Positions 1 to 20,112 of a DNA stretch of 64,000 bases are shown here, in pieces (position 1 is the stretch's first letter; each line of letters opens with the position of its first letter). The stretch lies in assembly GCA_947632435.1 (NCBI GenBank), contig CANRPC010000006.1, positions 4,923 to 68,922 of the forward strand, written 5' to 3'. The notes beneath the pieces were generated by a model, which was not told the DNA's origin, did no database searches, and saw only the letters and a program-made list of their open reading frames with translations. Made by a program: the position numbers and the translations under genes. The DNA comes from an uncultured Bacilli bacterium (lineage in GTDB: Bacteria; Bacillota_I; Bacilli_A; RFN20; CAG-449).

Positions 1-890
1 AGATTTCCTTCAGAAGTATTTAATGAATAATCTATATTTTGCTTAGATAAATAATTTTTCAAAAGCTTAATTTGATTTTGTGTATTCATTCCATCAACCA
101 TTGGATCATCACCAATTTCATCTTTACCTATTTTACATAGATAATCATGAAAATCTTGCTTTTGGTTTGGATGATCGTCTGCACCAGGAGATTGAGTAAA
201 ATCTTTGATTGAAAAAATATCATTAGTCATTTGTCTTGAAATTACATCATAATTTTCAGGGATGATGAGATCAGTATAAAATGTATCATAATAACTTAAT
301 AGAATCTCCATTGATACAATTGTACATGTTCCAACATGATTCCATGCATGATGGTCATTAAGTTTTTCAAAGTAAAAAGCATTAGGTATTACAACTGCAT
401 CATTTGCAATTTCAATTTCTCTATAATATTCACCTGCTTTAGCTTCTAAATTACTATAACAACTAATCATTTTTGTGAAATCAATTTTATTTGAAGTTGA
501 GGAATCAACAAAAGAATCATTATAATATGTTACATATCTAAATCCAAAATTTTCTGTTGAATATACTTTAAAATTATTTTCATACTTTTCGTATGGACTA
601 TCATCAGTAAAAGAATATTCCTTTATTTCCATTTCTTTTTTATCATAAATCAAATATCCTTCGTCTAAATTAACTTCTAAATATCGATTTTCACCAGATA
701 AAGTGTATAAATCGCTGATATATTCTATACAATTTAACTCATCACAATTTTGATAAGATATATTATTTTTTTCACAAATAAAAGTTGCGATGTTATTTAA
801 ATCAGAAGATCGAGTTTCATAATTTATTCCAGATGCAAAACCAGTAATTGCTGATAAGGCGTTAAGACCAAGTATAATAGCATTTAGCAT
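1..890 (-). CDS. Secreted hypothetical protein, 5'-partial at the window edge. N-terminal signal peptide (MLNAIILGLNALSAITGFASG), Cys-rich, with a DHHAWNHVGTCT motif.
   Basis: Hand translation of the minus strand from ATG at 890 (RBS GGAGGG upstream at 897-902) runs open to the window edge. It is absent from the ORF track because it is truncated. Co-oriented with the mobile-element operon. Confidence 0.5.
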   Translation of the reverse strand, partial: MLNAIILGLNALSAITGFASGINYETRSSDLNNIATFICEKNNISYQNCDELNCIEYISDLYTLSGENRYLEVNLDEGYLIYDKKEMEIKEYSFTDDSPYEKYENNFKVYSTENFGFRYVTYYNDSFVDSSTSNKIDFTKMISCYSNLEAKAGEYYREIEIANDAVVIPNAFYFEKLNDHHAWNHVGTCTIVSMEILLSYYDTFYTDLIIPENYDVISRQMTNDIFSIKDFTQSPGADDHPNQKQDFHDYLCKIGKDEIGDDPMVDGMNTQNQIKLLKNYLSKQNIDYSLNTSEGN

Positions 891-905
891 AAGTTTCCCT
901 CCTAT

Positions 906-1502
906 TTAAAGTGCATAAGCACAAGCAAATATAATTGATATAATAATTAAAAATATGTTAAGTATAAAAATAATAGTTGCACTAACAAACAAATAATATT
1001 TTGCCTTCATTTGCTTAATAAATCGCCATAGTGCAAATAACAATATATCAATAATACACATAATAAACGTGATTATTGCTATCGGATTTCCATTTTTGGA
1101 GCAAGAATAAATAATGCTCCAAGTATAAAATTCTTTTAACGGATGATCCATACCAGTTGGTATTGGATAAACATAATTAAATCCTTTCAGGAATGGAATA
1201 AGAGAAGTAATCAAAAACAAAAAGCAAATTATAACACCTGTTATAGAAACAATTATATGAATGAGTTTTATAGATTTTAATGTGTCTAAAGATATTTGCA
1301 CGTTCTCATCGTTATCTACTAAATCTGACAATTTGACATTAAAATATACTGCTATTTTTTCTGCAACTTCCTTAGTTGGATAAACAAATCCTCTTTCATA
1401 TTTTGCAATCATCGAACGAGAAACATAAATTGCATCAGCTAATTCGCTTTGAGTAATTTTTTTATCATTTCTGAGTTTTTTTAATTTGTCTGAAAAATTC
1501 AT
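906..1502 (-). CDS. Membrane-tethered XRE-family HTH transcriptional regulator. N-terminal Cro/C1-type HTH with about 4 C-terminal transmembrane helices.
   Basis: ORF 906..1511. The start was refined to ATG at 1502 (MNFSDKL), which has a GGGGTGGT RBS. HTH motif KKITQSELADAIYVSRSMIAKYERG. Hydrophobic C-terminal half. Confidence 0.7.
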   Translation of the reverse strand: MNFSDKLKKLRNDKKITQSELADAIYVSRSMIAKYERGFVYPTKEVAEKIAVYFNVKLSDLVDNDENVQISLDTLKSIKLIHIIVSITGVIICFLFLITSLIPFLKGFNYVYPIPTGMDHPLKEFYTWSIIYSCSKNGNPIAIITFIMCIIDILLFALWRFIKQMKAKYYLFVSATIIFILNIFLIIISIIFACAYAL

Positions 1503-1742
1503 AATTACCACCCCGTTTTCTTACTTTACTTATACATTCAAATTAATAAAAAAGTAAAGTTCTTTTTTTGTGAACATTGTTCTTTTTTTATGAACATTCA
1601 AAATTACATTCCAATTATATAAATCTCTTTTTTCAATATCATTCTAATTTTATCATATAAATGGACACTTTTTTAGGAAAAGCTATAAATTTTCTTGCAA
1701 AATAAATCTCTCAATGACTTATTTTATATTTTTTTAGCAATT

Positions 1743-2174
1743 TTATTTGCATTGTTTCCACTTCTTTTCTATATTCATCAATTTTTGAGACACTGCTTGC
1801 TGTGATATTTTCATTATATTAGCGGTTTCTCTCTGATTCATTTCTTTAAAATAGTAAAGTTTGAAACAAAAGTTCTCTTTATCAGTCAATGAATGAAGAA
1901 AAGAATCTAAAATTGATTTTCTTTCTTCTATGGCTATTAATTTTCTTTCAATTTTATCTTTTCGATCAAGAAGAATCATCATTCTATCAGGTTTAACATT
2001 CGTGCTTCCGCCAATACGATCATAAACAGGACCAGACACAGTAAAGAAAAGATGATTTACCCACTCTAAATCTTCTTCAAGTTTTTTCTTACGAAATTTA
2101 TCCTGCTTTACCATTCTTACGAAGTCCATTAAGGAGTTCTTGCATTGACTCGTTCCAGCGTTCCATTCTTTCAT
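1743..2174 (-). CDS. ArpU/RinA-like phage transcriptional regulator with a sigma-70 region-4-like C-terminus.
   Basis: 143 aa. C-terminal HTH RETANIMKISQQAVSQKLMNIEKKW. Strong RBS GGAGGGA 5 nt upstream of ATG at 2174. Overlaps the 3' end of the upstream rep-like gene by 76 bp. Confidence 0.5.
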   Translation of the reverse strand: MKEWNAGTSQCKNSLMDFVRMVKQDKFRKKKLEEDLEWVNHLFFTVSGPVYDRIGGSTNVKPDRMMILLDRKDKIERKLIAIEERKSILDSFLHSLTDKENFCFKLYYFKEMNQRETANIMKISQQAVSQKLMNIEKKWKQCK

Positions 2175-3048
2175 CGTATCCCTCCATATGGCTTAAGTTG
2201 TTTTCAAAAGCACACCTAAAAAAATCATATATGTTCCAAATCTTATCTTTGTTTTTTCCAACATAGTCCCTAGTATAGCGAAAACACTTCTGTACGAGTT
2301 TCCAATCATATGCTTTACAAGCACTATCAAAAAGATCATTGAATCGCTCAATATCAATGTCGTAAATATCTATGATGTGATCACTTATTAAGCATCTTGT
2401 GTAATACGAAAGATAACGAGGAAATGCCGTTATATCATATTTATCCTTTTTATCTTCTTTTCCTTTTACTTTAACTTTCCCTTTTACTTTAGGAATTTTT
2501 GCTGACATTAACTCGGTTTCTGTTAACATTAATTCGTTTTTTGTTTGCAATAATTCCTCTTGAACGGAATTATTGTCAACATTTATTCCATTGAGTGATT
2601 TTTCACTTTTGTTGTCTGAACCATAATTTTTTATTACAGAAGATTCATCATCTGTGGTCAAAATCCAATATGGATGATCCTTTTGCTTTCTTCTTTGTGT
2701 TGAAGCTAAGAATTGCTTTTGTATCCCTTTTGAAGTAATTATTTCATTTGAAAGCATACTAGAATCAATTAAATCTAACTTAACAAATAGATCCAGTATT
2801 TTTCTTACATAGGAAACATCCTTATCGCTTTCTTTGAACCTGATTTCATAATAAATTGAATATGCAAGTCTATCCAAAGAACCTTCAATATAATAACCAT
2901 TACTTGAATAAGTCATTGTTAAAAGCATAAGGTATACTAAAGGACCATCTGGTCCAAATTCAACAGATAGTCTTCTTATCTTAGGATCAGCAAAAAACCT
3001 AACATCCAAAGGAAAGTAATCAAGCCCATCTTTCAATCTTCTAGGCAT
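2098..3048 (-). CDS. Phage replication initiation / replisome organizer-like protein (Lin1244/DUF4373-type N-terminal domain).
   Basis: The ORF is called 2098..3129, but the likely start is MPRRLKDGLDYFPLDVRFF at 3048, which has an AAAGGAG RBS. The GLDYFPLDV N-terminus is typical of the DUF4373 phage replication family. The assignment rests on pattern memory. Confidence 0.5.
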   Translation of the reverse strand: MPRRLKDGLDYFPLDVRFFADPKIRRLSVEFGPDGPLVYLMLLTMTYSSNGYYIEGSLDRLAYSIYYEIRFKESDKDVSYVRKILDLFVKLDLIDSSMLSNEIITSKGIQKQFLASTQRRKQKDHPYWILTTDDESSVIKNYGSDNKSEKSLNGINVDNNSVQEELLQTKNELMLTETELMSAKIPKVKGKVKVKGKEDKKDKYDITAFPRYLSYYTRCLISDHIIDIYDIDIERFNDLFDSACKAYDWKLVQKCFRYTRDYVGKNKDKIWNIYDFFRCAFENNLSHMEGYDERMERWNESMQELLNGLRKNGKAG

Positions 3049-3161
3049 GGTATTTTTGCTCCTTTCTGCAAGTGATAAAAATCTGCACAAAATGACAGGA
3101 ATAAGCATAAATTCTCTTAGACCTGCCACTTTTGTACATATTTAAACCGAAATCACTAACA

Positions 3162-3368
3162 TTATTTCTTATTCGGTTTATTCTTGTTTTCGCTTCTTTG
3201 GATAAACTCCTCTAGCATTTCTTTTGATACTCTTTTTGCTTTACCAACAGTGTAATATCTAAGCTCACCTTTATTCATCATATCCATTACTTTTCTTTTG
3301 GAAACTCCCCAGAGTTCCGCTAGTTCACTAACGGTATAACAGATCTTCCCATCTGATGTTTGTGCCAT
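3162..3368 (-). CDS. xis: Excisionase-like small HTH DNA-binding protein.
   Basis: 68 aa. Motif YTVSELAELWGVSKRKVMDMMNKGEL matches the excisionase/MerR-type HTH. Strong RBS GGAAGGAGG. Lies adjacent to the integrase operon. Confidence 0.6.
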   Translation of the reverse strand: MAQTSDGKICYTVSELAELWGVSKRKVMDMMNKGELRYYTVGKAKRVSKEMLEEFIQRSENKNKPNKK

Positions 3369-4136
3369 CTAATCTTCCTCCTTCCTACCTGCATAATCTT
3401 CTAATATTTTTCTTATATGATTAATTCCCTTTTTATAGCAGAATGTTCTTCGATGCGTAACCAGTCCACCACTTTTATCTGTATAAGAATGGTTATCAAC
3501 TCTAAACCATCCTTTATCTTGATATTCTTGAAATGGAAAATTATCATCAGTAAAAATAAGTTGTGCTCTTAAAATCGCTAGGAGTTCGGCAATACCGACA
3601 CCCTTCATATTAATCACTGCAGGAACATCATAAAGATCAACAAGCGTTCCAGAATCTAAGGCTCTTTTAACATAGATTTTGACTTCTCTTGTTTCTTCTT
3701 GTTGACGTTCTAAAATTGCAAGTTTAACTTTGAGTTCATTGTAATTATCTAAAAACGACACTGCTGATTCAGTATTAGTGGTTATCATCTGAACATCATA
3801 TTTCCCATATCTTCTAATCTTTGGAAGTATGTCTTCAGTAACCCAGTCCATAAACTGCACTGCCGATTCTTTCCTAGATTGAAAAATTAACTTATATAAG
3901 TTCCCTTCTGTGATATAAAGGTAGTTTTGATTTCCACCATTTGATTGCCTAGTAAGTTTAACTACACCATCAGATCTTAGTCTTGATTTTGCATCAGAGA
4001 CATTTTTAATTTCTAAAATATTACACACATCTTTAAGGCAAAATACTGGACGTCCAAATTCATCGATACTAGTTCTTATTGTGCCAATTGAGTCACGCTC
4101 AAAAAGCGATACATTGTTTAGTTGTTCTTTTTCCAT
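3369..4136 (-). CDS. Phage antirepressor with a Bro-N N-terminal domain and a KilA-C/ANT-like C-terminal domain.
   Basis: 255 aa. N-terminus FERDSIGTIRT..DEFGRPVFCLKDVCNILE...GNLYKLIFQSRKESAVQFMDWVTEDILPKIRRYGKY is a classic Bro-N pattern. The C-terminus contains AELLAILRAQLIF. RBS GAAAGGA. Confidence 0.65.
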   Translation of the reverse strand: MEKEQLNNVSLFERDSIGTIRTSIDEFGRPVFCLKDVCNILEIKNVSDAKSRLRSDGVVKLTRQSNGGNQNYLYITEGNLYKLIFQSRKESAVQFMDWVTEDILPKIRRYGKYDVQMITTNTESAVSFLDNYNELKVKLAILERQQEETREVKIYVKRALDSGTLVDLYDVPAVINMKGVGIAELLAILRAQLIFTDDNFPFQEYQDKGWFRVDNHSYTDKSGGLVTHRRTFCYKKGINHIRKILEDYAGRKEED

Positions 4137-4180
4137 AATTGTCCTTTCGTATAGCGATATAAAACCATGATAAAAAAACG

Positions 4181-5098
4181 CTAATTCTTTTTTAAAATTG
4201 CATCTGCAACAATTAGTTCAGTATTATTGGTTTCTCTTTCAATATGATGAGAATAAATCATAGTTGTATTTATTGATTTATGTCTTAAAACCATCTGAAC
4301 TTCACTTTCTTTTGCTCCATTTTTTAAAGCTAGTGTTGCACAAGTATGCCTTAGACTATGAGCTGTGTACTCCTTACCATCAAGTCCAATCGAACTTAAT
4401 AAATCTTTGCAAAAATAAGAGATCGTTTTTGGTTCAATTCTTTCTCCACCATTATGATTTCCATGGTTAATGAAAAGTGCATCAGAATCACTTTCTCTTT
4501 TCATTAAGTATTCAGTAATTAATCCCATAACAAAGCTAGGTAATTTAATTTGAGCATCTTTTCCTTCATGACCTTTTCCCTGAATTAGTAAAATGGCTTG
4601 CTCTCCATCATCAATAATGTCTTCGACATTTGCTCTAGAAACCTCAATAGTTCTTAAACCTGTCATAACTATAAGAGTTATAATTACATAATTTCTAAAA
4701 TTTACAATTGATTTTTTTGATCTAATTTTTGCTTTATGAAGTAACTTTTTAGTCTGTTCAATTGTCAGAGCTTTTCTTTGAAATGTTGGATTTATTTTTT
4801 CACACTGTAATGCCAAAGCAATATTATCATCATAATAATGATGACGTTGACACCACGAATAGAACCTGCGTAGGACCACTATATATTTCTGGATAGTTGC
4901 ACTTTTCACACGTTTCTTAAGATATTTATTTTTATAATTTACAATGTCAATTTCAGTTGGTTTAGTTATATTATTAGCACGTAAATATCTAGCATATCTA
5001 TCAAGAATCCCTGCATAAGAAATCTTTGTATTATCCATTTTATCAAGAGTAGCATTAAACTCTTTTATTAGATCTTCCACTGTTCTTTCTTGTGACAT
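4181..5098 (-). CDS. int: Tyrosine-type site-specific integrase.
   Basis: C-terminal catalytic signature HSLRHTCATLALKNGAKESEVQMVLRHKSINTTMIYSHH (R..H..R..Y). The ORF track gives 4181..5110 with a GTG start. ATG at 5098 (MSQERT) has an AAAGGTGG RBS and is the more likely start. Confidence 0.85.
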   Translation of the reverse strand: MSQERTVEDLIKEFNATLDKMDNTKISYAGILDRYARYLRANNITKPTEIDIVNYKNKYLKKRVKSATIQKYIVVLRRFYSWCQRHHYYDDNIALALQCEKINPTFQRKALTIEQTKKLLHKAKIRSKKSIVNFRNYVIITLIVMTGLRTIEVSRANVEDIIDDGEQAILLIQGKGHEGKDAQIKLPSFVMGLITEYLMKRESDSDALFINHGNHNGGERIEPKTISYFCKDLLSSIGLDGKEYTAHSLRHTCATLALKNGAKESEVQMVLRHKSINTTMIYSHHIERETNNTELIVADAILKKN

Positions 5099-5103
5099 CT
5101 TTT

Positions 5104-5382
5104 TTACCACCTTTCTTTATGATTAAGCTCTCGGATTTTTTCTAGATACTTTGCTTCTTCATCAACAATGTAAACCACATCAATGTTAAACACCTGTGCA
5201 AGAGCCTTTAGTCTAAGAGCATTCATTAAATGACCTTTTGTACCATTCTCAATTTTTCCATATTCGAATTGAGGGTATCCTAGTCGCTTAGCTACTTCAT
5301 ATTGAGATAAGTTTCTTTCTATCCTCAAATTGAAAAGATAGTCTCTGCTTTTTACGATGTTTCCGTTATTCATCCGTCCCAT
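5104..5382 (-). CDS. Cro/CI-type HTH (XRE family) regulator. It is the first gene of the leftward int operon.
   Basis: HTH LSQYEVAKRLGYPQFEYGKIENG. The ORF track extends to 5400 with a GTG start. ATG at 5382 is preceded by AAGGGAGGT. Transcribed divergently from the 190-aa XRE gene. Confidence 0.7.
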   Translation of the reverse strand: MGRMNNGNIVKSRDYLFNLRIERNLSQYEVAKRLGYPQFEYGKIENGTKGHLMNALRLKALAQVFNIDVVYIVDEEAKYLEKIRELNHKERW

Positions 5383-5523
5383 CGGTATACCTCCCTTCAC
5401 ATTTGACTAAAATTCGTGGAATTGTTTGTCTAATGTATGGAAATTTTACCGCTAATTGTCAAAATAAATAATTTACTCGAAGTAATATCTTTTAATTATT
5501 TTGCATTTTGTCAAATTTCAAAG

Positions 5524-5552
5524 TTGAATAAAAACTATGTTTTTGTTATAAT
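5524..5552 (+). promoter_or_regulatory. Sigma-A-type promoter for the rightward repressor-like gene. TTGAAT -35 at 5524-5529, a 17-bp spacer, and an extended -10 TGTTATAAT at 5544-5552.
   Basis: Read directly from the sequence. RBS AGGTGA at 5566-5571. TTGTCAAA is repeated twice in the 5401-5576 intergenic region (around 5455 and 5507), as would be expected for operators. Confidence 0.5.
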
Positions 5553-5576
5553 TCAAAACTGAAATGAGGTGAAAAA

Positions 5577-6149
5577 ATGCAAGACGAAGAATTTATAAAA
5601 TTAGTTTCAAAAAGACTTGTTTACTTAAGAAAAAAACATGATCTAAGTGCCGTTGAAGTTGCAAAAGCAATAGGAAAAAGCGTAGATGCTTATTACAGCT
5701 ACGAGGCAGGTAGAAGGATGATTTCTGCAGATGCTTTGTATAATTTATCAAATCTATATGACATGTCTATTGATGACATTGTTGATAACGAAGTAACATA
5801 TAAACGAGAAAAATCAGTCAGTTTTGAAGTTGTAAATTCGGATAGTAAAATACAAATTTCCTCCGAGAATAATGAAATTATTTTTTTTAAATTAGATGAT
5901 TTCACCTATGAATACTATTTAAAAACAAATACCATTACGCTTGACAGAAAAATCCTTTTAAAGAAAGACGATGTCTTCTTCTCAGGTAAAGTTACATATA
6001 ACGAAAAAATGAAAGTTTACTCTATTTACAATTACTTAGATGATAGAAATGAAATCTGCACTAAAGCACATTTCTTGAAACATTATCTTACTTATGGAAT
6101 TTATGCTGGAAGAATTAATAAAAACATAGATATTCCAAATTTCTTATAA
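5577..6149 (+). CDS. XRE-family HTH protein resembling a CI-like repressor, with a C-terminal extension.
   Basis: N-terminal HTH LSAVEVAKAIGKSVDAYYSYEAGRR. Transcribed divergently from the Cro-like-int operon across a 176-bp promoter region. Confidence 0.7.
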   Translation: MQDEEFIKLVSKRLVYLRKKHDLSAVEVAKAIGKSVDAYYSYEAGRRMISADALYNLSNLYDMSIDDIVDNEVTYKREKSVSFEVVNSDSKIQISSENNEIIFFKLDDFTYEYYLKTNTITLDRKILLKKDDVFFSGKVTYNEKMKVYSIYNYLDDRNEICTKAHFLKHYLTYGIYAGRINKNIDIPNFL

Positions 6150-6259
6150 AATATTACTTTGAGTTTCTTATTTGTTTTAAAAAAATGGTTTAGACTGACA
6201 ATGGTTTAGTTATATTGTTCGGTCGTACTAGTTTATCCTATATGCCCTACAAATCTTTG

Positions 6260-6292
6260 AAGCACCATTCACGTTGGAAAGGTGCTTTTTTC
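6260..6292 (+). terminator. Rho-independent terminator: hairpin AAGCACC...GGTGCTT followed by a T-run.
   Basis: A stem of 7 bp with a T6 tail, read from the sequence. Confidence 0.5.
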
Positions 6293-6539
6293 TATGCAAA
6301 ATAATACTTTAAAAAATGATAATATATCTTTTTCACCTGAATGGGAATATTGCAAACAAGTAATTGATGAACTAAGAGCAAACAAAATCATAACATCAGA
6401 TGAATGGTATAAATTAATAATTTCATTTAGAAGCATATTTCATCTCCCTATCGCAAAATAGGTATTATTTCAGTTCAAAAATTACTTGATATAAGTGTGC
6501 TTTAGAGTGATTTATATGTGCGAAAGGAGGATTAATTTA

Positions 6540-8243
6540 ATGGAGTTAACAACAAAAAAAATAACTATAATTCCCAAGAAAGAACAAATAAAAGTTGATG
6601 AAACGACGGGTATTAAAATCAAAAAGAAAGTATGTGCTTATGCTCGTGTTTCTACAAATTTAGAAGACCAAAAGAATAGTTTTAATGCTCAGCTTGAGGA
6701 ATATTCAAGCAGAATAAAGAGAAATCCTGAATGGGAATTTGTAGGACTATATTCTGATGAAGGAATATCAGGAACATCCATAAAGAAAAGAAAAGGGTTC
6801 CAGAAAATGATTGAGGATGCTCTAGAAGGAAAAATCGATATAATTCTAGTAAAATCAATCTCAAGATTCGCTAGAAATACTATCGATTGCCTAAGTGTAC
6901 TTAGAAAACTTAGAGATAAAGGAATCATTGTCCAGTTTGAAAAAGAGCAAATTAACACACTTGATCCAAAACTTGAGATGATGATTACAATTTTTGCATC
7001 AATGGCTCAGGAAGAATCAAAATCGATTAGTGAAAATGTTAAATGGGGCGTTCGAAGTCGAATGAAACGAGGTGCAAGAAAAATTAGTTTTTCTACCATT
7101 CTTGGATATGACACAGATACAAATGGCAATGTAGTAATTATCGATGATGAAGCAAAAATTGTAAAAGAAATTTTTACTCTATTCTGCTCTGGATACTCAT
7201 ATAGAGAAATAATTGATTATTTGACTGAGAAAGGTCAAAAAACTGGAACAGGTAAAGATTATTGGAATGTTGGTGATATTCAAAGAATATTATCAAATGA
7301 AAAATACTGTGGTGATGTTTTATTGCAAAAAACTGTCGTAGTTGATTTTCTAACTCACAAAGTTATAAAAAACAATGGAATAGAACCACAAGTTTATATC
7401 GAGGGACATCATCCACCTATTATCGATAAAGAGATGTTCGATTTTGCTAAAACAATTAGAGAACATAAGTATAAAATGATAGACCACACATCAAGAAAAA
7501 ATATTAATCCTTTAGCTGGTATTGTATATTGCTCTTGTTGCGGAAGAAAGCTTGATTCGATAACTACTCATCCTGGAAAGTCATATGCAAAAAAAGTTAT
7601 GACTTGTAAGCACATGAAAAAAGAAGCTGTAGATTTTTTAGAATGTAACCTCCCACCTATAGATTACGAATTATCAAAGGAAGCACTAAGACAAGTTTTG
7701 AATAAATACTACACTTCTGCTCCAGTTTACAAAAGATTATTTATGAACACTTTTAAAAAAGCGTTACCTAATTTCAGAGAAATTAAGTTATCTATAAATG
7801 ATATTAACTCAACTATAATTCAACTCGAATCTAAGCTTAAAGAAATCATCAAAAAACAAGCATTATCTCCATGTAAAGAAAATGAGATAGAATTTCAAAC
7901 TATAAAACAATTGTTAACTAAAGAAAAAGAAAAATTAGAAAACTTGGAAACTTCTGAAGTTAAAAAAGTAAATGATTTAAGGACATATGATGAAATAGAA
8001 AACTTTATCGAAAATGGAATTATACTTCCAAAACAACTTATAGCTCAAGTTATCAAATTTATTATAAGAAACAATGATAATTCATTAACTTTTGTTTTAG
8101 GAAACAAGGCCTCTTGTTCCATTTCAAAAGCTCAAATTGATGAATATCTTTCATTAACTCCTGTTGATTCAGGATCGGTTGAAATTGATGGAAAAGTTAT
8201 GGAGTATAAAGTAATTAATGCAGGAGGTGATACAAATGATTAA
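6540..8243 (+). CDS. Large serine recombinase with an N-terminal resolvase/invertase catalytic domain, a recombinase domain and a zinc ribbon.
   Basis: YARVSTNLEDQ catalytic-Ser motif, DIILVKSISRFARN, and Cys pairs CSCCGRK...TCKHMK. The start was refined to ATG 6540 (MELTTKK), which has an AAAGGAGG RBS. The ORF track begins at 6495. Confidence 0.85.
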   Translation: MELTTKKITIIPKKEQIKVDETTGIKIKKKVCAYARVSTNLEDQKNSFNAQLEEYSSRIKRNPEWEFVGLYSDEGISGTSIKKRKGFQKMIEDALEGKIDIILVKSISRFARNTIDCLSVLRKLRDKGIIVQFEKEQINTLDPKLEMMITIFASMAQEESKSISENVKWGVRSRMKRGARKISFSTILGYDTDTNGNVVIIDDEAKIVKEIFTLFCSGYSYREIIDYLTEKGQKTGTGKDYWNVGDIQRILSNEKYCGDVLLQKTVVVDFLTHKVIKNNGIEPQVYIEGHHPPIIDKEMFDFAKTIREHKYKMIDHTSRKNINPLAGIVYCSCCGRKLDSITTHPGKSYAKKVMTCKHMKKEAVDFLECNLPPIDYELSKEALRQVLNKYYTSAPVYKRLFMNTFKKALPNFREIKLSINDINSTIIQLESKLKEIIKKQALSPCKENEIEFQTIKQLLTKEKEKLENLETSEVKKVNDLRTYDEIENFIENGIILPKQLIAQVIKFIIRNNDNSLTFVLGNKASCSISKAQIDEYLSLTPVDSGSVEIDGKVMEYKVINAGGDTND

Positions 8244-9852
8244 AACATTGCATAAACCAGTTGATGGCAGAAAACTAAAAGTTTGTGCTTATGCTAGAGT
8301 TTCATCAGATAAAGAACTTCAAGAAACAAGTTTTGATGAGCAAATAACATATTATATTAATTTAATAATGAATAATCCTGAATGGGACTTTGCAGGTATA
8401 TTCGCAGATAATGGCAAGACAGGTACTAATACAAGTGTAAGAACACAATTTAATCTCATGCTTGATAAAGCAAAATCTAGCCAAATTGATATTATTCTAG
8501 TTAAATCAATTTCACGATTCGCAAGAAATGTAATTGACCTTTTAAGCACCATTCAAGAACTAAGATTAAAAGGAATTGAAGTCTTTTTTGAAAGAGAAAA
8601 CCTTTCTTCTCTCGATTATAAATGCGATGAACTTCTAACTTGTTATGCAAAATTTGCTGAAGAGGAATCAGAATCAATAAGTAAGAATGTTAAATGGGCT
8701 GTTGAAAAAGCAAAACGAGATGGAAAATACTTTATCAATACTTGGCAGATGCTAGGATATTCATATAATGAAAACAATGAAATTGTTATTGTTGAAGAAG
8801 AAGCAAAATGGATACGAGCAATTTATAACATGTATGTAAATAATCGCTCACTTGTAGAGATTCAACAATTCTTAAAGGAAAACAATGTTAAAAGTCCTTT
8901 AGGAAAAGAAATATGGCCTTTTACTACACTTATGCATACTCTAACAAATGAAAAATATGTAGGTGATTGCCTCATGCAAAAAGAATTTATTGAAGATGTC
9001 AAGACGCATAAGAAAATTCAAAATACTGGCCAAGAAACGCAAGTACTCATAGAAAATGGGCATCCAGCAATTATAGATAGAGATTTATTTAATAAAGCTC
9101 AAGCATTAAGAGAATCAAGACGTAAGCAGTTTAAGGTAAGAACTATATTAGAAGGAACCTACATAAAATCTTCTAATTCTTCTACTTATACTGGATTTGC
9201 ATACTGTCCTCATTGTGGTAAGAATTATATTCTTAAAACAAATAGAAAAGAAGGTTATATGAGAAAAATGCTCTACTGCGGTTCAAATCGAAATGGACTT
9301 CAATGCAGAAAAAGCGAATCATTATTTTGTGACATTTTGGAAGACATTATGGTAAAGCAAATAAATGTTATACTAGCAAATAAATCATATTTTAAAGAAT
9401 GGTTATTAAATGGCTTCAGAATAAATGAATCAGACATTGATAATACTTCTGAGAAGATTGAATCTTTAAGAAAAAGACTTACTGAACTTGATGATAATGT
9501 TGAAATAGACAGGTATGTTAAAGAGGAAATTAACAATCAAATAAATAGTCTCATTACCAAGCAAATCCAAGAGCGAAATAATAAACTTGTAATTGATTAT
9601 CAATCTCTTATTTCAAAAATTCTTGATTTGATTAAGCAATATAATTCAATAAAAACAATTGATGAAATTCCGTTTAGAGATATTTTCTCAAAAGTGATAG
9701 TCATTGATAGAGATCACTTAATATTTGTCATAGGAAGTCCAAATTTAGAAAAAGTTGATGTTAATCAAAAAACATACTTCTCATCAAAAATAATTTACAG
9801 AGTGAGAAAAACAAACTTCGAATGTGAATTTGGTATAATCATAAATAAGTAA
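8236..9852 (+). CDS. Second large serine recombinase, a paralog of the upstream gene.
   Basis: YARVSSDKELQ, DIILVKSISRFARN and a zinc-ribbon CPHCGK...CGSNRNGLQC. The start was refined to ATG 8236 (MIKTLHK), which has a GGAGGTGA RBS. It overlaps the upstream stop by 8 bp, as in ccrA/ccrB pairs. Confidence 0.85.
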   Translation: MIKTLHKPVDGRKLKVCAYARVSSDKELQETSFDEQITYYINLIMNNPEWDFAGIFADNGKTGTNTSVRTQFNLMLDKAKSSQIDIILVKSISRFARNVIDLLSTIQELRLKGIEVFFERENLSSLDYKCDELLTCYAKFAEEESESISKNVKWAVEKAKRDGKYFINTWQMLGYSYNENNEIVIVEEEAKWIRAIYNMYVNNRSLVEIQQFLKENNVKSPLGKEIWPFTTLMHTLTNEKYVGDCLMQKEFIEDVKTHKKIQNTGQETQVLIENGHPAIIDRDLFNKAQALRESRRKQFKVRTILEGTYIKSSNSSTYTGFAYCPHCGKNYILKTNRKEGYMRKMLYCGSNRNGLQCRKSESLFCDILEDIMVKQINVILANKSYFKEWLLNGFRINESDIDNTSEKIESLRKRLTELDDNVEIDRYVKEEINNQINSLITKQIQERNNKLVIDYQSLISKILDLIKQYNSIKTIDEIPFRDIFSKVIVIDRDHLIFVIGSPNLEKVDVNQKTYFSSKIIYRVRKTNFECEFGIIINK

Positions 9853-9876
9853 AAAAATATATAAAAAAAGAGGAAC

Positions 9877-9915
9877 TTGAGTTTGTAAGTTCAAGTTCCT
9901 TTTTCTTTGCTCATA
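9877..9915 (+). terminator. Rho-independent terminator: a 10-bp perfect stem AGGAACTTGA...TCAAGTTCCT followed by TTTTCTTT.
   Basis: Read from the sequence immediately after the recombinase stop. Confidence 0.6.
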
Positions 9916-10110
9916 AGTTCGCTTCCCGTTTGCTTCTCGTTCGCTTTCCCTATGTCTTTAATTTGAATAATTTATGAGTTCGTACCCTATATTTATCAAT
10001 GCATTTTTGCCTAGTTTAATACCAATTGACCAGAAACCGCTAGAACTAATCATTTGCTAAAAAGTGTCGTTTCGTGCGTTTTGCTGTTGATATAGTGCAT
10101 TTTTAGACAA

Positions 10111-10139
10111 AAATAAAAAGAGTACCAACTGGTATTCTT
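10111..10139 (-). terminator. Rho-independent terminator for tRNA-Trp. The hairpin has 9 of 10 bp paired, followed by a U-run on the minus strand.
   Basis: Plus strand reads AAATAAAAAGAGTACCAACTGGTATTCTT. On the minus strand this is a hairpin followed by TTTTTATTT. Confidence 0.5.
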
Positions 10140-10153
10140 TTGGTTTTTTTGAA

Positions 10154-10227
10154 TGGCAGGAGTGACAGGAATCGAACCCGCGTTAATGGTTTTGGAGACC
10201 ACTGTACTACCATTGTACGACACTCCT
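10154..10227 (-). tRNA. trnW: tRNA-Trp (anticodon CCA).
   Basis: Minus-strand sequence AGGAGTGTCGTACAATGGTAGTACAGTGGTCTCCAAAACCATTAACGCGGGTTCGATTCCTGTCACTCCTGCCA folds into a cloverleaf with anticodon loop CTCCAAA. The CCA end is encoded. Confidence 0.85.
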
Positions 10228-17500: not shown

Positions 17501-20112
17501 GTCTTTAATTCCTTTTTAATTTCTTCAAGTGCTTTGTCTAAATTAGAAACATCTTTTCCTCCACCTTGAGCGATATCTTTTCTACCTCCACCGCTACCTT
17601 GAGTTAATGAAGCGATTTTTTTAATTAAATTACCTGCTTGGAATTTAGATTGGGCTAGTTCTGATACAGAACAAATATATGAAATTTTATTATCATTAAC
17701 TAAAGCAAGTAATACTACAGAAGGATTATATAATACTTTTAATGAATCAAATAAAGTTGAAAAAATATTTTTATCCATATTATCAATTCTTGTTACTAAA
17801 ACCTTTAATGAATTATAATCTAAAAAAGAATTTTTTAATGACTTAGCCTTTAAACTTGCAAGTTCATTTGTTAAAGTTATAACTTTTTGTTTTAAATTAT
17901 CATTATCTTCATTTATAAATTGAATTTTTTTGATAATATCATTTACGTTATTAACTTTAACTAATTCTGCTGCTTTATTTAAAATATTTTCCTTAGCTTT
18001 TAAAAATTGATAAGCAGAATAAGATGTTTTAGCTTCAATTCTTCTAATTCCAGAAGCAATTGAACTTTCATAAACTATTGCAAAAACTCCAAGTTCAATG
18101 GTATTTGCAACATGACAACCTGCACAAAATTCTTTTGAAACATCAGCAAAACTTACAACACGAACAAAATCACCATATTTTTCATTAAATAAAGACATTG
18201 CATTTAATTTTTTAGCTTCCTCTATTGGCATAATTTTAATAGAAGATGGAATTTCCATAGCAATATATGTATTAACTTCTTTTTCAATAGCTTTTAATTG
18301 GTCTGGAGTAATTTTTGTTTCATAATTAAAATCAAAACGTAAATAATCTTCACCTACAAAACTACCTTCTTGATGCACTTCATTTCCTAAAACAACTTGT
18401 AATGCTTTTTGTAATAAATGAGCACCTGAATGATTTTTTTGTATAGCTCTTCTTCGTTTTTGATCAATTTTTAAATTTACTACATCTTTTATTTTTAAAG
18501 ATCCAAATTTTACTTTTATAAAATGTAAATGTTGTTTATTTGGTGCTTTTATAACATTAAAAACTTCACATTCAAAATTGTCATTTTGCATTATGCCTAT
18601 ATCATTTATTTGTCCACCTGAAGTTGCATAAAAATTTGTGTTTTCTAAAATAACTTCGCCTTCATCATCTATTTCATTTACTTTTATACCATTTTTGAAT
18701 AATCCAATAACTTTGCTTGAAATATCTTGTGGATCATAAATAAATTCTGATAAAGTTTTAAATTCCATTAAATCAATAGCTTGAGAAGACATAGATTGAA
18801 GATCACTTCTAGATGCACGAGCTCTTTCTTTTTGTAAAGTCATCTCATTTTCAAAGCCTTTTGTATCAACACTAAAACCTTTTTCTAGAAGAATTTCTTG
18901 TGTTAATTCTAATGGAAAACCATATGTATCATATAATTTAAATGCGTCTTTACCTAATAATATTTTATTTTCCATCTTTTCAACAATTTTGTCTAAAATT
19001 TGCTCGCCACTTACTAATGTTTTAGCAAATTTTTCTTCTTCGTTTTTAATCATTTTCATGATTTTATTAACTTTATCTTGTAAATAAGGATAATAGTCTT
19101 TCATATTATTTGCCACTAGAGGAACTAGTGTATATAAAAATGGTTCATTAATATTTAATTTTCTTAAATATCTAACTGCACGTCTTAAAATTCTTCTTAA
19201 AACATAGCCTCTACCTTCATTTGAAAACATTGCACCATCAGCAATAGCAAACACACATGTTCTAATATGGTCTGCAATAACTTTATATGCCATTTTATTT
19301 TGACCAACATATTTCAATTTTGTATGCTTTTCAACTTCTTTTATATATGGAAAAAATAAATCTGTTTCAAAATTTGTTTCCGTTTCTTGGAAAATACAAG
19401 CAAGTCTTTCTAATCCTGCACCAGTATCAATATTTTTTCTTGGTAGTTCATTATATTCTTCTCTTTTTTTACCACTTTCAGCATTATATTGTGAAAAAAC
19501 AATATTCCATATTTCGATGTAACGATCATTATCCATATCCTCAAACATCATTTTTGGTCCTAAATGCAAAGGATCATATTTTTCTCCGCGATCAAAAAAG
19601 ATTTCAGTATTTGGGCCACATGGTCCTTCACCTATTTCCCAAAAGTTATGTTCTAAAGGAACAAGATGAGTTTCATCAATTCCTAATTTTATCCATAGTG
19701 ATTTTGTAGCTAAATCACTAGGATGATAGGTAATATAAAGCTTTTCTTTAGGAATGGCAAAATACGCTTCACTTGTTAATAATTCATATCCCCAAGTTAT
19801 TGCTTCCTCACGGAAATAATCACCAATAGAAAAATTACCTAGCATTTCAAAAAATGTATGATGACGTGCTGTTTTACCAACGTTATCTATATCATTTGTT
19901 CGAATTGATTTTTGGGCATTGGTAATGCGTGTATGTGTAGCGATTTCACTACCATCAAAATATTTTTTTAATGCTGCAACTCCTGAATTAATCCATAATA
20001 AAGTTGGATCATTATGAGGAATTAATGAAGCTCCTGGTTCAATATAATGTCCTTTTGATTTAAAAAAATCAAGCCAAATTCTACGAATTTCATTCCCTGT
20101 TAAATATTTCAT
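17494..20112 (-). CDS. alaS: Alanyl-tRNA synthetase.
   Basis: Class II AlaRS motifs throughout, with a C-terminal DHHA1-type GGGG region (GGGRKDIAQGGG). The ORF track starts at 20184. ATG 20112 (MKYLTGNEI), with a GGGAG RBS, is the likely start. Confidence 0.9.
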   Translation of the reverse strand: MKYLTGNEIRRIWLDFFKSKGHYIEPGASLIPHNDPTLLWINSGVAALKKYFDGSEIATHTRITNAQKSIRTNDIDNVGKTARHHTFFEMLGNFSIGDYFREEAITWGYELLTSEAYFAIPKEKLYITYHPSDLATKSLWIKLGIDETHLVPLEHNFWEIGEGPCGPNTEIFFDRGEKYDPLHLGPKMMFEDMDNDRYIEIWNIVFSQYNAESGKKREEYNELPRKNIDTGAGLERLACIFQETETNFETDLFFPYIKEVEKHTKLKYVGQNKMAYKVIADHIRTCVFAIADGAMFSNEGRGYVLRRILRRAVRYLRKLNINEPFLYTLVPLVANNMKDYYPYLQDKVNKIMKMIKNEEEKFAKTLVSGEQILDKIVEKMENKILLGKDAFKLYDTYGFPLELTQEILLEKGFSVDTKGFENEMTLQKERARASRSDLQSMSSQAIDLMEFKTLSEFIYDPQDISSKVIGLFKNGIKVNEIDDEGEVILENTNFYATSGGQINDIGIMQNDNFECEVFNVIKAPNKQHLHFIKVKFGSLKIKDVVNLKIDQKRRRAIQKNHSGAHLLQKALQVVLGNEVHQEGSFVGEDYLRFDFNYETKITPDQLKAIEKEVNTYIAMEIPSSIKIMPIEEAKKLNAMSLFNEKYGDFVRVVSFADVSKEFCAGCHVANTIELGVFAIVYESSIASGIRRIEAKTSYSAYQFLKAKENILNKAAELVKVNNVNDIIKKIQFINEDNDNLKQKVITLTNELASLKAKSLKNSFLDYNSLKVLVTRIDNMDKNIFSTLFDSLKVLYNPSVVLLALVNDNKISYICSVSELAQSKFQAGNLIKKIASLTQGSGGGRKDIAQGGGKDVSNLDKALEEIKKELKTW

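What the first reader, a model, noticed from the sequence alone, without database searches (positions are those of the whole stretch)
1..10227. Composite integrative element abutting the 3' end of tRNA-Trp that carries two recombinase families
The first ~10 kb is dominated by phage/satellite-type genes, all co-oriented and tightly packed or overlapping. These are a Cro-like regulator, a tyrosine integrase, a Bro-N antirepressor, an excisionase, a replication initiator, an ArpU-like regulator, a divergent CI-like gene, and then two large serine recombinases. The block ends 300 bp from the 3' end of tRNA-Trp, a classic integration target. The core genes yqeY, ABC-F and holA resume on the other side. 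Carrying a tyrosine integrase with Xis together with a tandem large-serine-recombinase pair in one island is unusual. It suggests either two nested or tandem elements, or an element with separate integration and inversion/resolution functions. The left boundary lies outside the window.
Basis: partly seen in the sequence, partly recalled or inferred. Interest (0 to 1): 0.75.

Follow-up and report, generated by a model that had tools for sequence, protein, structure and literature searches.

The report
Two-recombinase mobile element beside tRNA-Trp
A mobile DNA element sits exactly at the end of a tRNA gene; it belongs to a widespread family I found no description of, which picks its tRNA target with a swappable pair of serine recombinases, always keeps an extra Xer-like tyrosine recombinase, and in most relatives carries anti-phage defence genes.

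Summary
The gene calls are correct. Element DNA runs right up to the CCA end of tRNA-Trp (10154), not just to within 300 bp of it.

It is not two nested or tandem elements. The same block occurs in more than 40 independent loci: tRNA/tmRNA-CCA, terminator, LSR2, LSR1, small ORF, CI, then Cro, Tyr recombinase, Bro/ANT, HTH_17, Rep and sigma-like. This holds down to about 36% Tyr-recombinase identity.

The serine-recombinase pair most likely sets the target:
- The Tyr recombinase is 100% identical in the window (tRNA-Trp) and in L008 (tmRNA), while the LSRs are only 43-45% identical.
- The same LSR type sits at the same tRNA in hosts whose core genes are only 60-72% identical, while the element is 85-97% identical.

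The Tyr recombinase is Xer-like, catalytically intact and under strong purifying selection (dN/dS 0.035). Its role is inferred only: resolving multimers of the excised, Rep-replicated circle, or some other secondary recombination.

Relatives carry restriction-modification, Ssp or other defence systems after Rep/sigma.

The left end is unresolved. Homology to sister elements stops at 1756.

Verdict: a real element and a new variant of a known kind (SCC-like or satellite-like integrative element). Interest is moderate to high.

The parts
10154..10227 (-). tRNA-Trp(CCA). This is the target gene, and its CCA end at 10154 is the host/element junction.
   Evidence: ARAGORN and Rfam. The acceptor 3' strand co-varies with the host's 5' strand in the window versus L048, so the tRNA is host DNA up to at least 8 nt before its end.
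10116..10141 (.). Bidirectional hairpin terminator supplied by the element, immediately after the tRNA.
   Evidence: Terminator scan. A hairpin followed by a T-run directly after CCA is also seen in L008, L049, L052, L061, L062 and L078.
10051..10089 (-). Conserved 39-nt block in the element end, shared with elements that carry different LSRs. Function unknown.
   Evidence: Alignment; sequences; coordinates.
9917..9946 (.). 11-bp tandem repeat (GTTCGCTTCCC, 2.7 copies) between LSR2 and the junction. Function unknown.
   Evidence: TRF. Also present in L048.
8218..9852 (+). LSR2, a large serine recombinase of 544 aa.
   Evidence: Pfam. The catalytic Ser and four Zn-ribbon Cys are invariant in 16 family sequences. 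dN/dS is 0.071 against L048.
6540..8243 (+). LSR1, a large serine recombinase of 567 aa. It overlaps LSR2 by 26 bp.
   Evidence: Pfam; alignment; dN/dS 0.106; start codon checked.
6294..6461 (+). Small conserved ORF (55 aa) just upstream of LSR1. It is swapped together with the LSR pair and may be an accessory or directionality factor.
   Evidence: An ORF of about 45-99 aa is called at the same place in L048, L049, L052 and L054. It has no Pfam hit.
5577..6149 (+). CI-like repressor (HTH_3). It is flanked by operator-like palindromes at 5473-5485 and 6154-6166 and followed by a hairpin at 6261-6286.
   Evidence: Pfam; inverted repeat I1.
5104..5382 (-). Cro-like HTH protein, the first gene of the rightward (induced) operon.
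   Evidence: Pfam; gene calls in L008.
4181..5098 (-). Xer-like tyrosine recombinase (305 aa), tightly packed behind Cro.
   Evidence: Pfam. R149, K175, H247, R250, H273 and Y282 are invariant down to 41% identity. The best solved relatives are XerA, XerC-like, XerH and XerD. dN/dS is 0.035.
3369..4136 (-). Bro-N plus ANT antirepressor-type protein.
   Evidence: Pfam; PHROG 130.
3162..3368 (-). HTH_17 excisionase-family protein, a candidate recombination directionality factor.
   Evidence: Pfam; TIGR01764.
3087..3135 (-). Conserved hairpin between the xis-like gene and rep.
   Evidence: pairing is kept through compensatory changes in L049 and L056. Coordinates.
2098..3048 (-). Replication initiator (Lin1244_N, PHROG 2562).
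   Evidence: It is identical at the nucleotide level to the L008 copy.
1743..2174 (-). Sigma-70 region-4-type small regulator, the last chassis gene. Homology to sister elements ends at 1756, inside its last codons.
   Evidence: Pfam; NCBIfam; breakpoints.
1..1511 (-). HTH_3 plus TM regulator (906-1502) and the N-terminal part of a C10-type peptidase (1-891). These are either cargo or flank; this is unresolved.
   Evidence: Pfam. Homologous gene pairs occur in other contexts in L073, L074 and L075. G+C is 0.255, the same as the host.

Best explanation
Window ~1754-10153 is the conserved chassis of ONE site-specific integrative element, inserted exactly at the CCA 3' end of tRNA-Trp. It is phage-derived and resembles a satellite or an SCC cassette.

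Shown by comparison:
- The gene order is a conserved unit in many genomes: [tRNA/tmRNA-CCA | terminator | LSR2 <- LSR1 <- small ORF <- CI | Cro -> Tyr recombinase -> Bro/ANT -> HTH_17 -> Rep -> sigma-like].
- The module [small ORF-LSR1-LSR2-adjacent element end] is exchanged as a block between otherwise near-identical chassis. Each exchange goes with a change of target: tRNA-Trp, tmRNA, tRNA-Met, -Pro, -Leu or -Cys.
- Every junction seen next to a tRNA or tmRNA lies directly after CCA.

Inferred:
- The two co-evolving serine recombinases act together as the integrase, as CcrA and CcrB do, with the crossover in or next to CCA.
- They sit downstream of CI and so would be made in the lysogenic state.
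- When CI is relieved, the Cro operon would supply an HTH_17 directionality factor for excision, Rep for replication of the excised circle, and Bro/ANT and the sigma-like protein for regulation.
- The Xer-like tyrosine recombinase would then carry out a second, different recombination. The most likely one is resolving multimers of the replicating circle. This is the weakest step, at about 0.3.

The region after Rep/sigma is a cargo slot. In most relatives it holds anti-phage defence systems.
For: Same element at the same site in a different host: in L048 the element is 85-97% identical, while ABC-F and yqeY are only 60-72% identical.

Same chassis at a different site: in L008 the Tyr recombinase is 100% identical and Rep is identical at the nucleotide level, but LSR1/LSR2 are 45/43% identical and the element sits at the tmRNA 3' end.

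Second independent case: the Tyr-recombinase protein used for that look-up (P0026, matched exactly) lies in L061, L065 and L066 at tRNA-Met in three hosts, and in L062 at another tRNA. Here L062 has a different LSR module and a different element end.

Junctions directly after CCA.

Conserved architecture: 33 of 33 IMG/VR loci with Tyr-recombinase identity of 36% or more keep it; where the contig reaches upstream, one or two LSRs precede the Tyr recombinase. 0 of 15 loci below 36% do.

Functional constraint: both LSRs keep the catalytic Ser and the Zn-ribbon Cys residues. The Tyr recombinase keeps R-K-H-R-H-Y. dN/dS is 0.035-0.106.

Complete relative: L008 is bounded by an exact 12-bp direct repeat, CCATCTAAAAAA. 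Its far copy coincides with a G+C drop from 0.286 to 0.241, and 0.03 matches are expected by chance.

Defence cargo in relatives.
Against: - No recombination, excision or circular junction was observed. Everything rests on comparative sequence.
- The far att site of the window element was not found, and a flanking direct repeat was found only in L008.
- L049 and L050 have 99% identical LSRs but are joined to two different tRNA ends. Specificity is therefore not strict, or these short contig ends mislead.
- L054 lies at a non-tRNA '...ACCA' site with a truncated LSR2.
- L004 has the same yqeY and tRNA-Trp, but its downstream flank is not found anywhere in the window. It may not be a simple empty site.
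- No target site for the Tyr recombinase was identified.
- Many IMG/VR relatives lie on 38-53 kb contigs. Some family members may therefore be complete prophages.
Confidence: 0.7

Rival explanations
1. Two independent mobile elements lie nested or in tandem: a tyrosine-integrase/Xis satellite next to a serine-recombinase element.
For: Two recombinase families and two HTH regulators lie within 10 kb. Tandem arrays at tRNA sites are common (PMC7192596).
Against: The two blocks are contiguous in the same order in more than 40 loci, down to 36% Tyr-recombinase identity. There is no att-like repeat or tRNA fragment between them. The Tyr recombinase sits inside the Cro operon, not at an element end.
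Confidence: 0.04
2. The region is the lysogeny and early module of an ordinary temperate prophage. That prophage is either complete and extends left of the window, or is a decaying remnant. The recombinases have no special joint role.
For: The genes are phage-type (PHROGs). The Rep N-domain is common in IMG/VR phages. Relatives are listed in IMG/VR on 38-53 kb contigs. L052 and L054 carry ParB-methylase, MetK and HNH genes after the sigma-like gene. Tandem LSRs occur at the end of an Anaeroplasmataceae phage genome.
Against: No capsid, portal, terminase or tail gene turned up in the 7-10 kb after Rep/sigma. Those regions were Pfam-annotated in L008, L048, L049, L052, L054, L056, L060, L061, L062, L078 and L100; they hold defence or unknown genes instead. 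L008 appears complete at about 14.35 kb between direct repeats. All chassis genes are intact and under purifying selection. The chassis was exchanged recently between sites, with near-zero synonymous divergence between the window and L008.
Confidence: 0.15
3. The tyrosine recombinase is the integrase that targets tRNA 3' ends, as in classical tRNA islands. The serine recombinases then do something else, such as inversion or resolution.
For: tRNA and tmRNA genes are the classical targets of tyrosine integrases (PMC4383910). An excisionase-family gene lies two genes downstream of the Tyr recombinase.
Against: An identical Tyr recombinase is found at tRNA-Trp and at tmRNA, and in a second case at tRNA-Met and another tRNA. 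In both cases the element ends differ, and they co-vary with the LSR module. The protein has no arm-binding domain and is Xer-like. The target tRNA is not split and no displaced tRNA fragment exists. The gene sits mid-operon behind Cro, not beside an att site.
Confidence: 0.06
4. A rival about extent only. The window copy ends inside the window at about 1754. It would be either a compact 8.4-kb cargo-less element or a copy whose far end was deleted, and the HTH-TM and C10 peptidase genes would be host DNA.
For: Homology to L048 and L008 stops at 1756, and homology to L074 (86%, with a different upstream sequence) starts at 1753. G+C of 1-1753 is 0.255, host-like. The HTH-TM/C10 gene pair lies in non-element contexts in L073 and L075, at host-like divergence of 71% and 60%. 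The same junction is present in two other samples, L005 and L006.
Against: There is no CCA-containing att-like sequence at 1753-1756, although every LSR-side junction in the family, and the one far-side site seen (L008), carries CCA. The L004 flank of tRNA-Trp does not match window 1-1753. Every relative whose post-chassis region was annotated, apart from L048 (which carries genes of unknown function there), carries restriction-modification, methylase or other defence genes after the chassis.
Confidence: 0.4

Closest known systems
Staphylococcal cassette chromosome elements (SCC/SCCmec) with the CcrA/CcrB pair
   Same: Two adjacent large serine recombinases. Site-specific insertion at the 3' end of a conserved housekeeping gene without inactivating it. 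Short flanking direct repeat (seen here in L008). Variable cargo that is often anti-phage defence. Per PMC11470126, SCC cassettes sit downstream of rlmH, are mobilised by Ccr recombinases, and the region is enriched in defences. That SCC elements also encode replication proteins is from my own knowledge.
   Different: The target is the CCA end of tRNA or tmRNA genes, not rlmH. The element has a CI/Cro switch, a Bro/ANT protein, an excisionase-family protein and an extra Xer-like tyrosine recombinase. The LSRs are not Ccr orthologues: 136 and 99 bits against a CcrB cut-off of 900. The host is probably an Anaeroplasmataceae- or Acholeplasmatales-like Mollicute (names).
Phage-inducible chromosomal islands and other phage satellites (PICI, P4-like, PLE)
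   Same: Size class of 8-15 kb. The layout is integrase, then divergent CI-like and Cro-like regulators, then xis and replication initiator. Integration is site-specific. Some satellites carry defence systems (PMC10085698, listed).
   Different: PICIs use one tyrosine integrase placed at the element end. Here integration appears to be done by a serine-recombinase pair, and the tyrosine recombinase is internal. No terS, capsid-remodelling or other packaging gene was seen. No helper phage is known.
Temperate phages with large serine integrases, including genomes with tandem LSRs
   Same: The LSR genes lie at the prophage end next to attP, with a phage-type immunity region. Two or three LSR matches per genome occur in Streptococcus Javan and S. 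suis prophages and in Anaeroplasmataceae phage NatCom_34063.
   Different: Those records are only 38-46% identical in the LSR. None has a Tyr-recombinase relative above 29% identity. NatCom_34063 has a different early region. No virion genes were seen in this family's visible parts.
tRNA/tmRNA genomic islands with tyrosine integrases (Islander type)
   Same: The targets are tRNA and tmRNA genes, at the 3' side, and gene function is preserved.
   Different: In the classical case a tyrosine integrase splits the gene, the island restores it, and a displaced fragment marks the far end (PMC4383910). Here the gene is not split, no displaced fragment exists, and the site co-varies with serine recombinases.
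Xer-type simple tyrosine recombinases (XerA, XerC/D, XerH; by analogy Cre of P1)
   Same: A two-domain protein (SAM-like N-domain plus catalytic domain) of about 305 aa with a full R-K-H-R-H-Y set. The closest solved structures are XerA, XerC-like, XerH and XerD.
   Different: It scores below every NCBIfam Xer cut-off. It is encoded on a mobile element inside a Cro operon. No dif-like site was found.

Membership tests
Large serine recombinases (serine integrases) | Resolvase catalytic domain with the nucleophilic Ser, plus a Recombinase domain and a zinc-ribbon domain | tested here: met
   Both proteins match PF00239, PF07508 and PF13408. The YARVS serine and four Cys residues are invariant in 16 LSR1 and LSR2 sequences.
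SCC Ccr recombinases (CcrA/CcrB/CcrC) | Score above the NCBIfam equivalog cut-off for CcrA, CcrB or CcrC | tested here: not met
   The best match is CcrB, at 135.7 bits (LSR1) and 98.9 bits (LSR2) against a cut-off of 900.
SCC-like element (functional class) | Both serine recombinases are required together for integration and excision | not testable with these tools
   Only indirect support. The two genes are adjacent and overlap in the window, and they are swapped together. Both are intact in all two-LSR loci except L054.
Tyrosine recombinase superfamily | Catalytic R-K-H-R-H/W-Y residues in a Phage_integrase domain | tested here: met
   PF00589 at 1.5e-26. R149, K175, H247, R250, H273 and Y282 are invariant in 11 sequences.
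Xer recombinases (XerC/XerD/XerS/XerA equivalogs) | Score above the curated NCBIfam cut-off | tested here: not met
   XerA_Arch 148 versus 220; XerD 122 versus 330; XerC 116 versus 335; XerS 64.5 versus 267.
Xer recombinases | Acts at a dif-like site (two ~11-bp inverted arms around a 6-8 bp spacer) | tested here: inconclusive
   I inspected the intergenic regions of nine family members. Only operator-like palindromes and hairpins were seen, and no convincing dif-like site.
Classical tRNA/tmRNA genomic island (Islander definition) | The target gene is split and restored, with a displaced 3' fragment as a direct repeat at the far end | tested here: not met
   No second copy of the tRNA-Trp or tmRNA 3' segment, allowing up to 3 mismatches, in the window, L048 or L008. 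The host-specific acceptor strand is retained.
PICI / phage satellite | Integrase, divergent repressor pair and replication initiator in a 8-15 kb island | tested here: met
   This layout is present. L008 is about 14.35 kb between direct repeats.
PICI / phage satellite | Packaging or capsid-hijack genes (terS, ppi, cpm or capsid genes) and induction by a helper phage | tested here: not met
   No such Pfam hit in the window or in the annotated post-chassis regions of relatives. Helper dependence cannot be tested here.
Temperate prophage | Virion structural and lysis genes within the integrated element | tested here: inconclusive
   None in the window part or in 7-10 kb after the chassis in the relatives examined. 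However, the far parts of the 38-53 kb IMG/VR contigs were not readable.
ICE / IME | Relaxase, oriT or type IV secretion genes | not tested
   No relaxase or T4SS Pfam family appeared in the proteins scanned. No dedicated search was made.

The most novel reading that the evidence does not exclude
The family is a previously undescribed modular chassis with three parts.

(i) A swappable targeting cassette, consisting of the small ORF, two co-evolving large serine recombinases and their attP half. It anchors the crossover on the universal CCA end of tRNA and tmRNA genes, and exchanging the cassette retargets the element from one tRNA to another.

(ii) A constant Cro-operon core. Its conserved Xer-like tyrosine recombinase performs a second reaction. 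In the boldest version, it exchanges defence-gene cassettes at the sharp chassis/cargo boundary at the end of the sigma-like or Rep gene, as an integron integrase would. The more modest alternative is simple multimer resolution.

(iii) A cargo slot that spreads restriction-modification, Ssp and other defence systems among gut Mollicutes and Firmicutes.
Probability: 0.3. Interest if true: 0.8.

Novelty: new variant of a known kind. Interest (0 to 1): 0.62.

Why it matters
- Serine integrases are prized genome-engineering tools. Their known natural targets are mostly protein-coding or intergenic sites (my own knowledge). A family of paired serine recombinases that all cut at the CCA end of tRNA or tmRNA genes, and are retargeted by swapping one cassette, would be a natural experiment in how these enzymes choose sites.
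- It would also be a source of new att/integrase sets.
- The family appears to be a common vehicle for anti-phage defence systems in poorly studied gut Mollicutes-like bacteria. In that respect it parallels SCC cassettes in staphylococci.
- The invariant extra tyrosine recombinase poses a clear, testable question: why would an integrative element need two recombinase chemistries?

Tried and rejected
Searches that gave nothing useful:
- Megablast of 1-10227 against GenBank phages found no match.
- IMG/VR scans for close relatives of LSR1 and of the Tyr recombinase found none. The Rep N-domain matched only generic phage hits at 28-38%.
- The single genome-contig scan, using the peptidase, returned only a 38% relative in an unrelated context, L007. 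The source genome is not a GTDB representative.
- The JGI metagenome scan with a yqeY/tRNA junction 29-mer found nothing.
- A homologue search with the 65-aa ORF downstream of tRNA-Trp in L004 found nothing. I could therefore not confirm that L004 is a true empty site.
- Rfam found only tRNAs.

Searches for the far end:
- There is no repeat of the tRNA 3' end.
- There is no junction-spanning repeat except in L008.
- No far-end module is shared between the post-chassis regions of the relatives compared.
- There is no P arm that is an inverted copy of the P' arm.

Ideas rejected:
- A CI inversion switch driven by the Tyr recombinase. The inverted repeat I1 is an operator-like palindrome, and CI has the same orientation in every locus.
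- HTH-TM as an orthologous flank shared with L048. The two proteins are only 28% identical, and only in the HTH.
- An exact common breakpoint 'GTGGAA|' as proof of site-specific cargo exchange. L048 and L008 stay homologous for about 30 nt beyond it.

Full report
**1. Observation**

On the minus strand, reading away from the divergent promoter region:
- Cro-like HTH, 5104-5382.
- Tyrosine recombinase, 4181-5098.
- Bro-N/ANT, 3369-4136.
- HTH_17 excisionase-family protein, 3162-3368.
- Lin1244_N replication initiator, 2098-3048.
- Sigma-70 region-4-type small regulator, 1743-2174.

On the plus strand:
- CI-like HTH protein, 5577-6149.
- Two large serine recombinases, LSR1 (6540-8243) and LSR2 (8218-9852). 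Each has Resolvase, Recombinase and zinc-ribbon domains.

tRNA-Trp(CCA) lies at 10154-10227 on the minus strand. It is followed by yqeY, an ABC-F gene, holA, comEC and comEA.

G+C is 0.302 for 1754-10153, against 0.25 on both sides.

**2. The junction with the tRNA**

The foreign DNA does not stop 300 bp from the tRNA. It abuts the CCA end.

L048 is a 30.6-kb contig from another sample. It carries the same element next to yqeY and tRNA-Trp. There the element is 85-97% identical to the window, while ABC-F and yqeY are only 60-72% identical. So one element has entered two different hosts at the same site.

The 300 bp between the tRNA and LSR2 are homologous in the two hosts, starting from the first base after CCA.

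The first ~110 bp are also recognisably homologous in L008, where the element lies beside a tmRNA gene instead.

The tRNA's 3' acceptor strand co-varies with the host's own 5' strand. The window has AGGAGTG/CACTCCT and L048 has AGGGGTG/CACCCCT. The tRNA is therefore host DNA to within 8 nt of its end.

The element supplies a bidirectional hairpin terminator directly after the tRNA, at 10116-10141.

No copy of the tRNA 3' segment exists elsewhere in the window or in L048.

**3. One element, not two**

I looked up the contigs that carry the Bro protein, the Tyr recombinase and its homologues. I also scanned IMG/VR with a profile of the Tyr recombinase.

The same order appears in more than 40 independent loci: LSR2, LSR1, a small ORF, CI, then Cro, Tyr recombinase, Bro/ANT, HTH_17, Rep and usually a sigma-like gene.

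In IMG/VR, 33 of 33 loci whose Tyr recombinase is at least 36% identical to the window's keep this neighbourhood. None of the 15 more distant ones does. About nine loci show only one LSR.

The 'two nested or tandem elements' reading is therefore not supported.

**4. Which recombinase chooses the site**

The Tyr recombinase of the window (at tRNA-Trp) and of L008 (at tmRNA) is 100% identical in protein. It has almost no synonymous differences, and Rep is identical at the nucleotide level. Yet LSR1 and LSR2 are only 45% and 43% identical, and the element ends next to them differ.

The high identity stops exactly at the start codon of a conserved ~55-aa ORF just upstream of LSR1 (window 6294-6461). 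The exchanged unit is therefore [small ORF-LSR1-LSR2-adjacent element end].

A second, independent case shows the same thing. The Tyr-recombinase protein used for the look-up (P0026, matched exactly) occurs in L061, L065 and L066. There the LSRs are 98-100% identical and the site is tRNA-Met in three hosts whose T-stems differ. It also occurs in L062, where the LSRs are only 37-42% identical to those, the tRNA is a different one and the element end is different.

Further junctions were read at tRNA-Pro (L052), tRNA-Leu (L078, L079, L082), tRNA-Cys (L100) and two other tRNA ends (L049, L050). In every one, the element begins directly after CCA.

Site choice thus follows the LSR module, not the Tyr recombinase.

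Both LSR paralogues keep the catalytic serine and the four zinc-ribbon cysteines. Both are under purifying selection, with dN/dS of 0.11 and 0.07.

They are not Ccr orthologues: the best NCBIfam match is CcrB at 136 and 99 bits, against a cut-off of 900.

Two caveats apply:
- L049 and L050 have 99% identical LSRs but different tRNA ends. These are read from only about 29 nt at contig ends.
- L054 lies at a non-tRNA '...ACCA' site and has a truncated LSR2.

**5. The tyrosine recombinase**

- It is a 305-aa two-domain protein.
- Its closest solved relatives are XerA, an XerC-like protein, XerH and XerD.
- It falls below every Xer cut-off in NCBIfam.
- R149, K175, H247, R250, H273 and Y282 are invariant down to 41% identity.
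- dN/dS against L048 is 0.035.
- It is packed directly behind Cro, so it should be made when the CI-like repressor is relieved.
- I found no dif-like site. The palindromes on both sides of CI (5473-5485 and 6154-6166) look like operators, and CI has the same orientation in every locus.

Its function is therefore inferred, not shown.

**6. Cargo and the far end**

After Rep or the sigma-like gene, relatives carry the following:
- L008: a C-protein, a methylase and a type IIG enzyme.
- L049 and L061-L064: an Ssp-like phosphorothioation system.
- L062: a type I system.
- L056: an AccI-type system.
- L060 and L057: an SNF2/DUF4391/methylase set.
- L100: BpuSI plus methylases. L078: Tsp45I, GmrSD and further methylases.

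L008 looks complete. An exact 12-bp direct repeat, CCATCTAAAAAA, spans the tmRNA end at 4012-4023 and recurs at 18354-18365. G+C falls from 0.286 to 0.241 at the second copy. Only 0.03 matches are expected by chance. That gives an element of about 14.35 kb that includes its defence cargo.

For the window itself the far end is unresolved:
- Homology to L048 and L008 stops at 1756, in the last codons of the sigma-like gene.
- Homology to L074 starts at 1753. L074 is 86% identical over the HTH-TM and C10-peptidase genes but has a different upstream sequence.
- That gene pair occurs in non-element contexts in L073 and L075.
- G+C of 1-1753 is host-like.
- On the other hand, there is no CCA-type att sequence at 1753-1756.
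- The flank of tRNA-Trp in L004 (same YqeY protein) matches nothing in the window.

I put about 0.4 on the element ending, or being truncated, at ~1754. The rest goes to a cargo-bearing element whose end lies outside the window.

**7. Mechanism**

Shown:
- There is a conserved single chassis.
- The LSR module is swapped together with the target.
- All junctions lie at CCA.
- All recombinases are intact and under constraint.
- The element has transferred between hosts.

Inferred:
- The two LSRs act together as the integrase, with the crossover in or next to CCA.
- They lie downstream of CI, behind a hairpin at 6261-6286, so they would be expressed at a low level in the integrated state.
- Induction of the Cro operon provides HTH_17 as the directionality factor, Rep for replication of the excised circle, and Bro/ANT and the sigma-like protein for regulation. 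The latter two might also interact with a helper phage.
- The Tyr recombinase resolves multimers of the replicating circle (about 0.3), or performs another secondary recombination.

The route of cell-to-cell transfer is unknown. No packaging or conjugation genes were seen.

**8. Comparison with what is known**

- *SCC/SCCmec.* This is the closest functional analogue. It has a pair of large serine recombinases and inserts at the 3' end of a housekeeping gene. Its cargo region is enriched in defence systems (PMC11470126).
- *PICI-type satellites.* The regulatory and replication layout is the same, but those use one tyrosine integrase at the element end and carry packaging genes.
- *Classical tRNA/tmRNA islands.* These use tyrosine integrases, split the target gene and restore it (PMC4383910). 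That is not the case here.
- *Tandem LSRs at prophage ends.* They exist in GenBank phages, including an Anaeroplasmataceae phage. No GenBank phage has a Tyr-recombinase relative above 29% identity.

Five full-text literature searches found no description of this architecture. The searches were limited.

I rate it a new variant of a known kind.

**9. Host**

Source names attached to homologues point to a Mollicutes-like gut bacterium that uses the standard stop codons. The names are 'Anaeroplasmataceae bacterium', 'Acholeplasmatales bacterium' and 'Tenericutes bacterium'. This was not tested further.

Noticed in passing
window 3087-3135 (between the xis-like gene and rep): A long hairpin followed by a T-rich run is conserved in position across the family. 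It keeps its pairing through compensatory changes: ACAAAA...TTTTGT in the window becomes GCGAAA...TTTCGC in L049. It could be an attenuator or terminator in front of rep, or an origin structure.
   Followed up: partly
window 5473-5485 and 6154-6166: Operator-like palindromes (TTACTTCGAGTAA and TTACTTTGAGTTT) lie on both sides of the CI-like gene. Relatives have co-varying palindromes at the same two places, which suggests repressor looping.
   Followed up: partly
window 10051-10089: A 39-nt block in the element end is conserved between elements whose LSRs are only 42-46% identical (window, L048, L008, L049, L050). It may be bound by a conserved chassis protein rather than by the LSRs.
   Followed up: no
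window 9917-9946: An 11-bp tandem repeat (GTTCGCTTCCC, 2.7 copies) lies between LSR2 and the junction. Relatives carry GTTCGAAC-like, T-loop-like motifs at the equivalent place.
   Followed up: no
L049:1-29 versus L050:1-29: Two elements with 99% identical LSR pairs and the same element end are joined to two different tRNA 3' ends. This suggests relaxed or dual target specificity, or recognition of generic T-arm/CCA features.
   Followed up: partly
L054:1-300 and 297-1694: This family member is joined to a non-tRNA sequence that still ends in ...ACCA. Its LSR2 is truncated (465 aa) and separated from LSR1 by a gap. It is probably a decaying copy at a secondary site.
   Followed up: no
IMGVR_UViG_3300000351_000079 (L060/L092 and L114): One 59.8-kb contig carries two family members, one near each end. 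HerA-like, OLD/GajA-like and UvrD/GajB-like genes lie just outside the LSR end of one of them.
   Followed up: no
L081, L086, L088, L091, L093-L097: About nine IMG/VR relatives show only one detectable LSR upstream of the same Cro-Tyr-Bro-Rep core. The pair is therefore not universal in the wider clade.
   Followed up: no
window 1-891; L074:903-6841: The gene that runs off the left end is a secreted C10-type (streptopain-like) peptidase. In L074 it is followed by further C10/C39-like paralogues. The family is large in Anaeroplasmataceae-like genomes, with 120 clusters at E<=1e-10.
   Followed up: partly
L004:777-1058: In a sample with an identical YqeY protein, tRNA-Trp is followed by an AT-only hairpin and an unrelated ORF (MIDLNIINDD...). 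That ORF has no homologue in the 5.8-billion-protein collection. This is either the empty site or a third kind of occupant.
   Followed up: partly
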